Source: Escherichia coli
Lineage (GTDB): Bacteria > Pseudomonadota > Gammaproteobacteria > Enterobacterales > Enterobacteriaceae
Length of the DNA stretch: 64,000 bases
NCBI RefSeq assembly: GCF_013122565.1
Contig: NZ_CP053258.1
Strand: one strand, 5' to 3'
Every line of letters starts with the position of its first letter. Within the stretch, counting starts at the first letter, position 1. Below are positions 26,656-33,778 of this stretch, in pieces. A model generated the notes under the pieces. That model was not told the DNA's origin, ran no database searches, and saw nothing but the letters and a program-made list of their open reading frames with translations. The translations under genes were made by a program, and so were the position numbers.

Positions 26656-27002
26656 AAATTCTCCTGTAAAACGCGGAATATACCGTACCTCTTAGCGGGG
26701 AAAAACAGGGTTATGCGGCAACGTCGAAATTAAATGTGATCTGCCACGCCTTTTATCACAAAAGTGTCTCCGGAAGTACGATGCAAATTTGCCTGGCAAA
26801 ATAAGGATAATCAACATATTACGAATCGCTGCACACCTGTGCTGATGACTACTACGCAGAGAAACAAATGTGCAAGAGAAAGCGCTATTTCTCCCCATGC
26901 AAAGAGTGAAAAATCGCTTTGAAAGGCCCTCATGATGGGGTTATATCAGATCAAGCGGTGAGAAAGCGTATTTGCACAGATGTGCAGAACCAGGAGGCGG
27001 CA

Positions 27003-31426: not shown

Positions 31427-31477
31427 TTCTTCGCCCCGGCACGACTGCCGGGGCCATCGCTCAACATGAGGTGGTTT

Positions 31478-32707
31478 ATGAAAACAACAGCTCTGCGTCT
31501 TTATGGTAAACGTGATTTACGCCTGGAAACCTTTGATCTTCCTGAAATGCAGGAGGATGAAATCCTCGCGACGGTGGTCACTGACAGCCTGTGCCTCTCT
31601 TCCTGGAAAGAGGCCAACCTGGGTGAAAACCATAAAAAAGTACCCGACGATGTGGCGACCAACCCCATCATCATCGGCCACGAGTTTTGCGGCGATATTC
31701 TGGCCGTGGGTAAAAAGTGGCAGCACAAATTTCAGCCGGGCCAGCGCTATGTGATTCAGGCCAACCTGCAATTGCCGGATCGCCCGGACTGCCCCGGCTA
31801 CTCCTTCCCGTGGGTGGGCGGTGAAGCCACACATGTGGTTATCCCAAATGAGGTTATGGAACAAGATTGCCTGCTGGCATACGACGGCGAAACCTATTTT
31901 GAAGGCTCGCTGGTTGAACCGCTTTCCTGCGTGATTGGCGCGTTCAACGCCAACTATCATCTTCAGGAAGGTAGTTATAACCACACGATGGGGATTCGCC
32001 CGCAAGGGCGCACGCTGATCCTCGGCGGCACCGGACCAATGGGACTGTTGGCGATTGATTATGCGCTGCATGGACCAGTTAACCCGTCGCTGCTCGTCAT
32101 TACCGATACCGACAACGACAAATTGAGTTATGCGCGCAAGTACTATCCATCAGAACCGCAAACACTGATTCATTATCTCAATGCCGCCGATGCAGCATTT
32201 GGTACGTTAATGGCACTGAGTGGCGGTCACGGCTTCGATGATATTTTCGTCTTTGTGCCTAATGAAGGACTGGTGACTCTCGCCTCTTCCTTGCTGGCGA
32301 CAGATGGTTGCCTGAATTTCTTCGCCGGACCGCAGGATAAACATTTCAGCGCGCCAATTAATTTCTACGATGTGCATTATGCATTTACCCACTACGTGGG
32401 CACGTCAGGCGGCAATACCGACGACATGCGCGCGGCGGTCAAACTGATCGAAGAGAAAAAAGTGCAGGCCGCAAAAGTGGTAACACATATTCTTGGGCTG
32501 AATGCCGCGGGCGAAACCACGCTTGAATTGCCTGCCGTCGGCGGCGGCAAAAAGCTGGTGTATACCGGGAAATACCTGCCGCTGACGTCACTCACGCAGA
32601 TTCAGGATCAAGCACTGGCGGCGATTCTGGCGCGTCATCAGGGGATCTGGTCCGGTGAGGCGGAGCAATACCTGCTCGCCCATGCAGAAGCAATTTCCCA
32701 TGATTAA
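31478..32707 (+). CDS. sorE: Zn-dependent MDR-family dehydrogenase, sorbose-1-phosphate reductase type
   Basis: ORF-track entry 31466-32707; start at ATG 31478 with RBS gaggtgg (MKTTALRLYGKRDLRLETF...GHEFCGDI...), 409 aa. Confidence 0.8.
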   Translation: MKTTALRLYGKRDLRLETFDLPEMQEDEILATVVTDSLCLSSWKEANLGENHKKVPDDVATNPIIIGHEFCGDILAVGKKWQHKFQPGQRYVIQANLQLPDRPDCPGYSFPWVGGEATHVVIPNEVMEQDCLLAYDGETYFEGSLVEPLSCVIGAFNANYHLQEGSYNHTMGIRPQGRTLILGGTGPMGLLAIDYALHGPVNPSLLVITDTDNDKLSYARKYYPSEPQTLIHYLNAADAAFGTLMALSGGHGFDDIFVFVPNEGLVTLASSLLATDGCLNFFAGPQDKHFSAPINFYDVHYAFTHYVGTSGGNTDDMRAAVKLIEEKKVQAAKVVTHILGLNAAGETTLELPAVGGGKKLVYTGKYLPLTSLTQIQDQALAAILARHQGIWSGEAEQYLLAHAEAISHD

Positions 32708-32865
32708 TCGCGCTACTTAACTCTGCATGTCGCTGGCTGGTCGCCGCGGCAACTTCGCGACCTGATGTGCGGCTGATTGCAGAAGCGGCACAATGTGCAC
32801 GAGAAGGATAAAAAACATCAGCGCCTTAAGGGGCGCTCAAATTGGTAGCAAAGTGCACATTGTTT

Positions 32866-32975
32866 ATGCCGGATGCGGAATGAAGCCTTATTCGGTCTAC
32901 ATAATTTTGAAAATTCAATATATTGCAGTTATCTGGTAGGCCTGGTAAGCGTAGCGCATCAGGCAATGCTGTGTT
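32866..32975. repeat. REP elements between sorE and pepE
   Basis: gccggatgcggaatgaagccttattcggtctaca ... taggcctggtaagcgtagcgcatcaggca. Confidence 0.6.
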
Positions 32976-33088
32976 TGTCATCAGTCTCAGCGCCCGGTGC
33001 AATACGTGACATCGTGAGCCATGTCAGTAAGTGGTTAAATTCGCAGTGGTAGCATTCCTTCCGTGATTTCTTGCTAACCGGAGAAGTA

Positions 33089-33778
33089 ATGGAACTGCTT
33101 TTATTGAGTAACTCGACGCTGCCGGGTAAAGCCTGGCTGGAACATGCACTGCCGCTAATTGCTGAACAGTTGCAGGGTCGCCGCTCAGCGGTGTTTATCC
33201 CTTTCGCTGGCGTAACGCAGACCTGGGATGATTACACAGAGAAAACGGCTGCGGTTCTCGCTCCGCTGGGTGTTTCTGTCACCGGTATTCATAGCGTTGT
33301 CGATCCCGTTGCCGCGATTGAAAATGCTGAGATCGTGATTGTCGGCGGCGGGAATACTTTCCAGTTGCTGAAACAGTGCCGCGAGCGCGGGCTGCTGGCA
33401 CCAATTACTGACGTGGTTAAACGTGGCGCACTGTATATTGGTTGGAGCGCAGGCGCTAACCTTGCTTGCCCAACCATTCGTACCACCAACGATATGCCGA
33501 TTGTCGATCCGCAAGGTTTCGATGCGCTGAATCTGTTCCCGCTGCAAATCAACCCGCACTTCACCAACGCGCTGCCGGAAGGCCATAAAGGTGAAACCCG
33601 TGAACAGCGTATTCGCGAACTGCTGGTCGTCGCGCCAGAACTCACAATTATTGGTCTACCGGAAGGTAACTGGATCACAGTGAGTAAAGGTCACGCAACG
33701 CTGGGTGGCCCGAACACCACTTATGTGTTTAAGGCTGGTGAAGAAGCGGTTCCGCTGGAAGCGGGTCACCGTTTTTAA
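33089..33778 (+). CDS. pepE: Peptidase E (alpha-aspartyl dipeptidase)
   Basis: ORF-track entry 33071-33778; start at ATG 33089 ([29 protein letters not shown]...), 229 aa. Confidence 0.93.

What the first reader, a model, noticed from the sequence alone, without database searches (positions are those of the whole stretch)
32790..32863. Perfect 11-bp inverted repeat flanking a GC hairpin downstream of sorE
acaatgtgcac (32790-32800) and gtgcacattgt (32853-32863) are perfect inverted repeats bracketing about 52 bp that contain a second hairpin (agcgcc-ttaagg-ggcgct). The structure lies right after sorE and just before a REP element, near the presumed right junction of the sor islet. It could be a large structured RNA element, a terminator/attenuator, or a recombination scar marking the insertion boundary.
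Basis: seen in the sequence. Interest (0 to 1): 0.35.

Follow-up and report, generated by a model that had tools for sequence, protein, structure and literature searches.

The report
Operon-end hairpin beside a gene relic
The perfect 11-bp inverted repeat is real, but it pairs the last codons of a deleted gene (sdhL) with the spacer before a REP/BIME repeat; only the small GC hairpin inside it is conserved, and that is the ordinary end-of-operon hairpin of the sorbose operon.

Summary
In detail: ACAATGTGCAC (32790-32800) and GTGCACATTGT (32853-32863) are perfectly complementary. They enclose the hairpin AGCGCCT-TAAG-GGGCGCT (32820-32837).

- **Left arm.** It is not intergenic DNA. It is the last codons of sdhL, a shikimate-dehydrogenase-like gene that follows sorE. 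In this window sdhL is destroyed by a nonsense codon and a 701-bp deletion. It is intact in 177 of 5426 E. coli genomes and in many other genera.
- **Inner hairpin.** It sits just after the sdhL stop codon in Escherichia, Citrobacter, Klebsiella, Raoultella, Kluyvera and Pseudocitrobacter. It is most likely the operon's 3' terminator or stabiliser hairpin.
- **Right arm.** It lies in the spacer before a REP-linker-REP (BIME) element. This is a ~170-bp module present in 0, 1 or 4 copies in Escherichia.
- **Outer repeat.** It was 10/11 ancestrally and became perfect through a TTT>TGT change in the dead gene. It is broken in most sor+ E. coli and shows no covariation.
- **Position.** It lies about 135 bp inside sor-linked DNA, not at the K-12 breakpoint (~32999). 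The sor-sdhL-pepE gene order is ancestral, so K-12 lost this region.

This is an ordinary feature of low interest.

The parts
31466..32707 (+). sorE (L-sorbose 1-phosphate reductase). Its stop codon TAA is at 32705-32707.
   Evidence: ORF list. RefSeq annotation of the homologous locus in E. coli strains MEW and MEI003.
32700..32757 (+). 5' fragment of the sdhL relic. The ATG at 32700 overlaps the sorE stop (ATGATTAA). Codon 7 is a nonsense codon (TAA, 32718-32720; CAA in the intact gene).
   Evidence: BLAST against strain MEI003 (L004): window 32690-32757 matches L004 2991-3058 at 94%. The intact start is read in strain JNEC-KY178, locus L010.
32758..32811 (+). 3' fragment of the sdhL relic: the last 17 codons (...A A Q C A R E G) plus the stop TAA at 32809-32811. 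The junction of the 701-bp deletion is at 32757/32758.
   Evidence: Window 32758-32827 matches L004 3760-3829 at 88.6%. L004 3059-3759 is missing from the window. The intact gene scores 448 bits against NCBIfam NF009202.
32790..32800 (+). Left arm ACAATGTGCAC. It spans the relic codons (gc)A CAA TGT GCA C(ga). The central G (32795) is derived; every intact sdhL has T here (a TTT Phe codon).
32820..32837 (+). Conserved GC hairpin AGCGCCT-TAAG-GGGCGCT, starting 8 nt after the sdhL stop codon. Probably the 3' hairpin of the sor-sdhL operon.
   Evidence: fold; 27 loci, 90.7% of cells paired, 0 of 500 shuffles as high; one copy per locus, always directly after sdhL.
32853..32863 (+). Right arm GTGCACATTGT, in the spacer between the hairpin and the first REP.
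   Evidence: Homologous spacer in other Escherichia species and, more weakly, in Pseudocitrobacter. Single copy in E. coli genomes.
32786..32789 (+). CGGC, which pairs with GCCG at 32868-32871 (the start of the REP) to extend the outer stem across a 4-nt bulge.
   Evidence: Predicted folds. 88.5% of cells paired in the 13-sequence alignment.
32867..32966 (.). BIME: a degenerate REP (32867-32900), a linker with the AATTCAATATATTGCA motif (32901-32934), and an inverted REP (32935-32966).
   Evidence: Inverted repeat I3. Rfam ES036 at 27.3 bits and naRNA4 at 16.1 bits, both below their gathering scores. A second REP-plus-linker copy lies at 4950-5010. Canonical REPs occupy the same place in related loci.
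32828..32998 (.). Variable module: right half of the hairpin, spacer with the right arm, the BIME and a tail. Absent from MEI003-type E. coli, one copy here, four tandem copies in E. albertii.
   Evidence: absent in L004; L014, period about 147 bp, 4 copies.
32818..32825 (+). TCAGCGCC, a direct repeat of 32987-32994. Together they bracket the variable module.
   Evidence: Direct repeat D6. Comparison with L004 and L014, where CGCCTT sits at the unit boundaries.
32987..32994 (+). Second copy of the TCAGCGCC direct repeat.
32999..33088 (+). The region upstream of pepE that is shared with K-12-type (sor-negative) E. coli. This is where the right-hand synteny breakpoint lies. The pepE ATG is at 33089.
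   Evidence: window 32999-33100 matches K-12-type L001 1501-1602 at 94%.

Best explanation
The 74-bp feature is a composite of three unrelated pieces, not one designed element.

(a) The left arm is the last few codons of sdhL, a shikimate-dehydrogenase-like gene that was the final gene of the sorCDFBAME-sdhL transcription unit. In this lineage the gene is dead: it has a nonsense codon at codon 7 and a 701-bp internal deletion.

(b) The inner GC hairpin, 8 nt after the sdhL stop codon, is an old element under purifying selection. It marks the 3' end of the operon. It most likely acts on the + strand RNA as a weak intrinsic terminator and/or a barrier to 3' exonucleases. The REP pair downstream probably helps by stabilising the transcript and limiting read-through into pepE.

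(c) The right arm is part of the spacer between that hairpin and the BIME.

The two arms were 10/11 complementary in the Escherichia ancestor, a level common by chance. They became 11/11 through a T>G change (TTT>TGT) in the already dead gene. If the region is transcribed, the outer stem would add about 15 kcal/mol and clamp the base of the hairpin. I regard that as a by-product, not a selected function.

Shown here: the anatomy, the homologies, the conservation and the population variation. Inferred: the role of the hairpin in termination or stabilisation, and the direction in which it acts.
For: - The gene relic is established (MEI003 carries an intact 786-bp gene; the window matches both of its ends) and (JNEC-KY178 has an intact gene followed by hairpin, right arm and BIME).
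- The gene's family assignment comes (NF009202, 448 bits; Pfam shikimate dehydrogenase domains).
- A published RNA-seq study reports that sdhL, adjacent to sor, is co-induced by sorbose in ST648 (PMC12817954).
- The hairpin is conserved after the sdhL stop codon in 27 enterobacterial loci: 90.7% of cells paired, 0 of 500 shuffles as high, 3 pairs with changes on both sides. One copy per locus is found in 24 of the fetched loci.
- U-richer tails follow the hairpin in several genera, for example GGCGCGUUUUCGUUU in one Raoultella.
- For the outer stem, most shuffles reach the observed pairing and covariation values (376-420 of 500).
- Variants break 1-3 pairs without compensation.
- Of 2689 E. 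coli genomes with the element, 761 carry the perfect H105 haplotype and 1038 carry the 9/11 O157-type haplotype.
- The central G is derived, because every intact sdhL has TTT at that codon.
- Inverted repeats of 10/11 are common by chance (43 per shuffled window).
- The outer stem has no counterpart in Citrobacter, Klebsiella, Raoultella or Kluyvera, where other DNA follows the hairpin.
Against: - The + strand tail of the E. coli hairpin (CAAAUUGG) is a poor U-tract, so efficient intrinsic termination on + is doubtful. The simple scan calls a terminator only on the - strand.
- Six of the seven transitions seen in the arms keep pairing as G-U on the + strand.
- The outer stem is still predicted on the + strand in four of the five non-window Escherichia lineages with intact sdhL. 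This is a weak hint of selection on an mRNA structure (about p 0.06 by my own count, not corrected for shared ancestry).
- No transcript-end data were available.
Confidence: 0.68

Rival explanations
1. The whole nested structure (outer stem plus hairpin) is a selected RNA element in the 3' end of the sor-sdhL mRNA of Escherichia and Pseudocitrobacter. Because the left arm is coding, ribosomes finishing sdhL would melt it. The clamp could therefore couple translation of sdhL to termination, to read-through into pepE, or to mRNA decay.
For: Folds are stable, z about -4.4. The stem is retained with G-U pairs on the + strand in JNEC-KY178, E. whittamii, Escherichia sp. EC7003 and the SCPM strain. 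In total 83% of cells are paired. Pairing potential persists in Pseudocitrobacter if a 1-nt bulge is allowed (my reading of the sequences).
Against: No pair shows convincing compensatory change, and shuffles reach the observed values. The stem is broken in at least 39% of element-bearing E. coli genomes (1038 of 2689) and is lost in E. albertii and strain 2014C-3075. It is absent from other genera that keep the hairpin. In the window itself the gene is dead, so a translation-coupled role is moot.
Confidence: 0.17
2. The hairpin is a Rho-independent terminator for the minus strand. It would stop antisense transcription that comes from the pepE promoter region or the BIME before it enters the sor operon.
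For: The only terminator-like hit in 32500-33200 is on the - strand: AGCGCCCCTTAAGGCGCT followed by GATGTTTTTT. In Klebsiella and Citrobacter a convergent ccdB gene ends exactly at this hairpin, so it can face minus-strand transcription there.
Against: No minus-strand gene or promoter was found upstream of it in the window. The T-run is simply the complement of the TAA stop plus AAAA. In Escherichia lineages with intact sdhL it reads TAAGAAAC, so it is lineage-specific. A 4-nt gap separates the stem from the T-run.
Confidence: 0.06
3. The arms are terminal inverted repeats of a small mobile element (MITE-like), or a recombination/attachment scar marking the edge of the sor islet.
For: The terminal-looking repeat is perfect. 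The region is rearrangement-prone: there is a 701-bp deletion next to it and a BIME module in 0, 1 or 4 copies.
Against: The element is single-copy in every E. coli genome that has it. The left arm is coding sequence in strains with intact sdhL. There is no flanking target duplication. The 11-mer is absent from the left junction. The K-12 breakpoint is at about 32999. The sor-sdhL-pepE gene order is ancestral.
Confidence: 0.02
4. The two GTGCAC-containing arms are paired operator sites for a DNA-binding regulator (for example SorC), about six helical turns apart.
For: Four of the ten ATGTGCA heptamers in the window lie in sor non-coding DNA: 26868, 26980, 32793 and 32854. The right arm sits in a near-palindrome, CAAAGTGCACATTG (I5).
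Against: The heptamer is not enriched in the window overall (10 observed, 11 expected). The arms vary freely among strains. One arm is coding sequence. Binding could not be tested here.
Confidence: 0.04

Closest known systems
Operon-end stem-loops: intrinsic terminators and 3' stabiliser hairpins of enterobacterial operons
   Same: A GC-rich 6-8 bp stem with a 4-6 nt loop sits a few nucleotides after the stop codon of the last gene. Its position and pairing are conserved across genera.
   Different: In E. coli the + strand lacks a proper U-tract (CAAAUUGG). The U-run is on the opposite strand and is lineage-specific. Termination itself was not measured.
REP/BIME elements (BIME-1-like: REP, IHF-type linker, inverted REP)
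   Same: Immediately downstream (32867-32966) there is such a pair with the repeated linker motif. From established knowledge, REPs stabilise upstream mRNA and can attenuate transcription.
   Different: The 11-bp repeat and the hairpin are not REP sequence and are single-copy. Only the GCCG extension of the stem borrows the first bases of the REP.
SdhL, the shikimate dehydrogenase-like protein family (NCBIfam NF009202/PRK12550; Pasteurellaceae relatives such as H. influenzae HI0607 from my own knowledge)
   Same: The left arm derives from the C-terminal codons of this gene. Intact orthologues follow sorE in many Enterobacteriaceae, and relatives 64-68% identical occur in Pasteurellaceae.
   Different: In the window only about 110 bp survive (32700-32811), with a nonsense codon and a 701-bp deletion.
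MITEs and IS terminal inverted repeats
   Same: A short unit bounded by a perfect inverted repeat.
   Different: Single copy, no target duplication, and one arm is conserved coding sequence.

Membership tests
Rho-independent (intrinsic) terminator | GC-rich stem-loop | tested here: met
   AGCGCCU-UAAG-GGGCGCU, -11.4 kcal/mol; 6 pairs, 5 of them G-C.
Rho-independent (intrinsic) terminator | U-tract immediately 3' of the stem on the transcribed strand of the upstream operon (+) | tested here: not met
   The + strand tail is CAAAUUGG. The scan finds the T-run only on the - strand. Some other genera have U-richer tails.
Rho-independent (intrinsic) terminator | Location at the 3' end of a transcription unit, conserved among relatives | tested here: met
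   It lies 8-25 nt after the sdhL stop codon in 27 loci from at least six genera.
Rho-independent (intrinsic) terminator | Transcripts actually end there | not testable with these tools
   No transcript 3'-end data were available.
REP/BIME | Match to the REP consensus, arranged as inverted pairs with a repeated linker | tested here: met
   This applies to 32867-32966 only: inverted repeat I3, linker motif repeated at 4995-5010, ES036 hit at 27.3 bits, below the 37.6 gathering score.
REP/BIME | The 74-bp repeat itself is part of the multi-copy repeat family | tested here: not met
   One place per genome in 2689 E. coli genomes.
MITE / transposon ends | Multiple copies and target-site duplication | tested here: not met
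   Single copy. The flanks aagcggc and ttatgcc are not duplicated.
Islet junction / attachment-site scar | Coincides with the synteny breakpoint and has a partner repeat at the other junction | tested here: not met
   Breakpoints lie at about 26690 and about 32999. There is no second 11-mer, even allowing one mismatch. The K-12-specific spacer is unrelated to the sor flanks.
Pseudogene relic of sdhL (NF009202 family) | Homology to both ends of an intact gene, with a disrupted reading frame | tested here: met
   94% and 88.6% identity to the two ends of the MEI003 gene, 701 bp missing, and TAA at codon 7.
Described RNA families (Rfam 15) | Covariance-model match at or above the gathering score | tested here: not met
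   Nothing covers 32790-32863. Only sub-threshold REP-related hits lie to the right.

The most novel reading that the evidence does not exclude
The pairing between the last codons of sdhL and the spacer after the operon-end hairpin may be a selected, G-U-tolerant mRNA clamp in Escherichia and Pseudocitrobacter, one that terminating ribosomes open. It would link translation of the operon's last gene to termination, mRNA decay or read-through into pepE. Relatedly, the ~150-170 bp unit of half hairpin, spacer and BIME may be a discrete expandable cassette, seen in 0, 1 or 4 copies.
Probability: 0.15. Interest if true: 0.35.

Novelty: new member of a known kind. Interest (0 to 1): 0.13.

Why it matters
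It matters little for mechanism. The feature is an ordinary operon-end hairpin next to a REP/BIME, and the striking perfect repeat is largely an accident of pseudogene decay.

Three points are modestly useful for annotation and for E. coli population genomics:
- Most sor+ E. coli described as lacking sdhL actually carry a ~110-bp relic of it.
- The sor-sdhL-pepE arrangement is ancestral in Enterobacteriaceae, so K-12 lacks sor through loss rather than sor being an inserted islet.
- The interval between the hairpin and pepE is a small hotspot. It holds BIME modules in 0, 1 or 4 copies in Escherichia and a ccdAB toxin-antitoxin pair in Klebsiella and Citrobacter.

Tried and rejected
- **Rfam.** Searches at a permissive E-value found no family on the repeat.
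- **The 11-mer elsewhere.** No copy elsewhere in the window or at the left junction, even allowing one mismatch.
- **Remnants in K-12.** I thought the K-12 spacer might hold remnants of the hairpin or arm (GCTCAAAT, CAGAAGCAATGTGC). Local alignment of the ~90-bp K-12-specific stretch to both sor flanks scores no better than shuffles, so the resemblance is chance.
- **Operator motif.** ATGTGCA/AATGTGCA are not enriched in the window. The clustering in sor non-coding DNA is noted but untested.
- **Second copies in E. coli.** The 'two places' reported disappear when each half is searched alone, apart from weak spurious hits.
- **More haplotypes like JNEC-KY178.** None exist among complete E. coli genomes.
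- **Literature on an sRNA between sorE and pepE.** Nothing found.
- **MITE reading.** Rejected because the element is single-copy and one arm is coding.

Full report
**1. Observation**

The sequence is as described.
- ACAATGTGCAC at 32790-32800 and GTGCACATTGT at 32853-32863 are 11/11 complementary, with 52 nt between them.
- Inside lies AGCGCCT-TAAG-GGGCGCT (32820-32837).
- The outer stem can extend by CGGC (32786-32789) pairing with GCCG (32868-32871).
- The 96-nt stretch folds to -33.0 kcal/mol on + (z -4.4) and -32.4 on - (z -4.8). Blocking the left arm leaves -18.4. The inner hairpin alone gives -11.4.
- Perfect inverted repeats of at least 11 bp with loops up to 100 nt number 11 in the window, against 1.6 in shuffles. 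Repeats of 10/11 are common: 76 observed, 43 in shuffles.
- The 11-mer occurs nowhere else in the window.
- No Rfam family covers it.

**2. What surrounds it**

The window is an Escherichia coli-type chromosome. The order is rluF (-), sorCDFBAME (+), then pepE (+).

Of 5426 complete E. coli genomes, 2689 carry this sorE-pepE spacer. K-12-type genomes share sequence only from about 32999 rightwards and up to about 26690 on the left. The repeat is therefore about 135-210 bp inside sor-linked DNA, not at the breakpoint.

**3. The left arm is coding sequence of a dead gene**

A minority of E. coli genomes (177 of 5426) have an intact gene between sorE and pepE. It is annotated as shikimate 5-dehydrogenase. 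It scores 448 bits against NCBIfam NF009202 and carries Pfam shikimate dehydrogenase domains. A 2025 mSystems paper calls it sdhL and reports it co-induced with sor by sorbose in ST648 (PMC12817954).

The window matches both ends of this gene:
- 32690-32757 matches MEI003 (L004) 2991-3058.
- 32758-32827 matches L004 3760-3829.
- The 701 bp in between are missing.

In strain JNEC-KY178 (L010) the sdhL ATG overlaps the sorE stop (ATGATTAA). The window keeps that ATG at 32700 but has TAA at codon 7 (32718-32720).

The left arm is the codon run (GC)A CAA TGT GCA C(GA), ending 9 nt before the relic's stop codon (TAA, 32809-32811). Every intact sdhL examined has TTT (Phe) where the window has TGT. 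The central G that makes the repeat perfect is therefore a derived change in a pseudogene. Strains XH990 and 2014C-3075 have the deletion but still carry T, so the deletion came first.

**4. The inner hairpin is old and conserved**

A scan of one genome per species found sdhL directly after sorE in:
- Escherichia whittamii, E. albertii and two further Escherichia lineages
- Pseudocitrobacter, Citrobacter, Klebsiella, Raoultella and Enterobacter

In most of these pepE lies downstream.

The hairpin shows the following across these loci:
- In 24 of the fetched loci the motif AGCGCC-N3-8-GGCGCT occurs once, always just after the sdhL stop codon.
- On an alignment of 27 loci the 8-pair helix is paired in 90.7% of cells, and 0 of 500 shuffles reach that.
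- Three pairs change on both sides, including GCGCC/GGCGC to GCACC/GGTGC in one lineage. Sliding the partner columns collapses the pairing.
- Flanking sequence is poorly conserved, at 58% mean column identity.
- The DNA after the hairpin differs by genus: a BIME in Escherichia; a convergent ccdB-ccdA pair whose stop codon abuts the hairpin in Klebsiella, Citrobacter and others; pepE almost directly in some Raoultella and Enterobacter.

The hairpin therefore marks the end of the conserved sor-sdhL block, which is the position expected for an operon-end terminator or stabiliser hairpin.

Two caveats apply. In E. coli the + strand tail is U-poor. The only consensus terminator call is on the - strand, where the T-run is the complement of TAA plus AAAA. 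Lineages with intact sdhL read TAAGAAAC there, so the minus-strand terminator look is recent.

The hairpin is degraded in E. albertii and weakened in the SCPM lineage. In E. albertii and in Escherichia sp. EC7003, sorE matches in two separate pieces and looks disrupted.

**5. The right arm belongs to the spacer before a BIME, within a variable module**

- 32867-32966 is a REP, a linker and an inverted REP.
- MEI003-type strains lack window 32828-32998 altogether: the right half of the hairpin, the right arm and the BIME.
- E. albertii has four tandem copies of the equivalent ~147-bp unit.
- The module is bracketed by the short direct repeat TCAGCGCC (32818 and 32987). The equivalent in relatives is CGCCTT. 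This is consistent with gain and loss by recombination between the repeats.
- In Pseudocitrobacter the spacer is homologous, but the BIME is in the opposite orientation. The spacer is therefore flank DNA, not part of the BIME.

**6. Is the outer stem selected?**

Among 13 Escherichia and Pseudocitrobacter haplotypes, the 11 outer pairs are formed in 83% of cells when G-U is counted. No measure exceeds the shuffles, which reach the observed values in 376-420 of 500 trials.

Within E. coli the arm states are as follows:

| Haplotype | Changes in the arms |
|---|---|
| O157 / 14EC033 type | A>C at arm position 1 and G>A in the right arm (9/11) |
| XH990 | central T (10/11) |
| 2014C-3075 | three changes |

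None of these changes is compensated. Of 2689 genomes with the element, 761 are identical to the perfect H105 haplotype and 1038 to the 9/11 O157-type haplotype.

Predicted energies fall from -33 to between -16 and -27 kcal/mol in the other Escherichia lineages.

One weak counter-signal exists. Six of the seven transitions in the arms give G-U on the + strand, and the stem is still predicted on + in four lineages with intact sdhL. By my own count this is about p 0.06, uncorrected for phylogeny. It is not enough to claim function.

**7. Conclusion**

The feature is a composite of three things:
- the last codons of an sdhL relic
- the conserved end-of-operon hairpin
- the spacer preceding a BIME

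The hairpin is the functional core. Its role as a terminator or 3' stabiliser is inferred, not shown. The perfect outer repeat is most likely a by-product. The 'recombination scar at the islet boundary' reading is rejected. Because the sor-sdhL-pepE order is shared across genera, K-12 lost this region rather than other strains having gained it. Kluyvera and Pluralibacter keep sdhL next to rluF and pepE without the sor transport genes.

**8. Leads that went nowhere**

- The K-12-specific ~90-bp spacer is unrelated to the sor flanks.
- The ATGTGCA motif is not enriched in the window.
- No extra copies of either half exist in E. coli.
- There are no further JNEC-KY178-like haplotypes.
- No literature on an sRNA here was found.

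Noticed in passing
L014 3592-4245 (E. albertii); equivalent to window 32828-32998: There are four tandem copies (period about 147 bp) of a unit made of the half hairpin, the spacer with the right-arm homologue, and a REP-linker-REP. The same unit is single-copy in the window and absent from MEI003-type E. coli. It is bounded by a short direct repeat, CAGCGCC(TT).
   Followed up: partly
window 32700-32811: Most sor+ E. coli, described in the literature as lacking sdhL, actually carry a ~110-bp relic of it with a nonsense codon and a 701-bp deletion. Only 177 of 5426 complete genomes keep the gene. MEI003-type genes also have the TAA at codon 7 and are annotated from an internal ATG.
   Followed up: yes
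L024, L025, L028, L029, L031, L032 (Kluyvera) and L035 (Pluralibacter): Kluyvera has rluF (-), a SorC-like regulator (about 40% identical to SorC), sdhL and pepE, but no sorDFBAME. Pluralibacter has rluF followed by sdhL. sdhL therefore seems to be an old resident of the rluF-pepE interval, independent of the sorbose transport genes.
   Followed up: partly
L038 3842-4452 (Klebsiella grimontii); similar in L043, L044, L020-L022, L028, L062, L077: A convergent ccdB/ccdA toxin-antitoxin pair (Pfam CcdB 84.7 bits, CcdA 85.6 bits) sits between the sdhL hairpin and pepE. The ccdB stop codon abuts the hairpin.
   Followed up: partly
window 26868, 26980, 32793, 32854: Four of the ten ATGTGCA heptamers in the 64-kb window fall in the ~700 bp of sor non-coding DNA. 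Two are upstream of sorC, including a TGCACAGATGTGCA palindrome at about 26973-26986. This may be an operator motif or may be chance.
   Followed up: no
window 26690-26700 and 32999; L001 1417-1500: K-12-type strains have about 90 bp of rluF-pepE spacer with no detectable similarity to either sor flank. The K-12 state is therefore a replacement, not a clean deletion.
   Followed up: partly
L012 (Escherichia sp. MOD1-EC7003) and L014 (E. albertii): In both, sorE matches in two separate pieces, which suggests frameshifts. The sor operon appears to be decaying in these species while sdhL stays open. The hairpin is also degraded in E. albertii.
   Followed up: no
L026 6408-6423 (Citrobacter sp. 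MGH106): A second AGCGCC...GGCGCT hairpin lies just after pepE in this locus.
   Followed up: no
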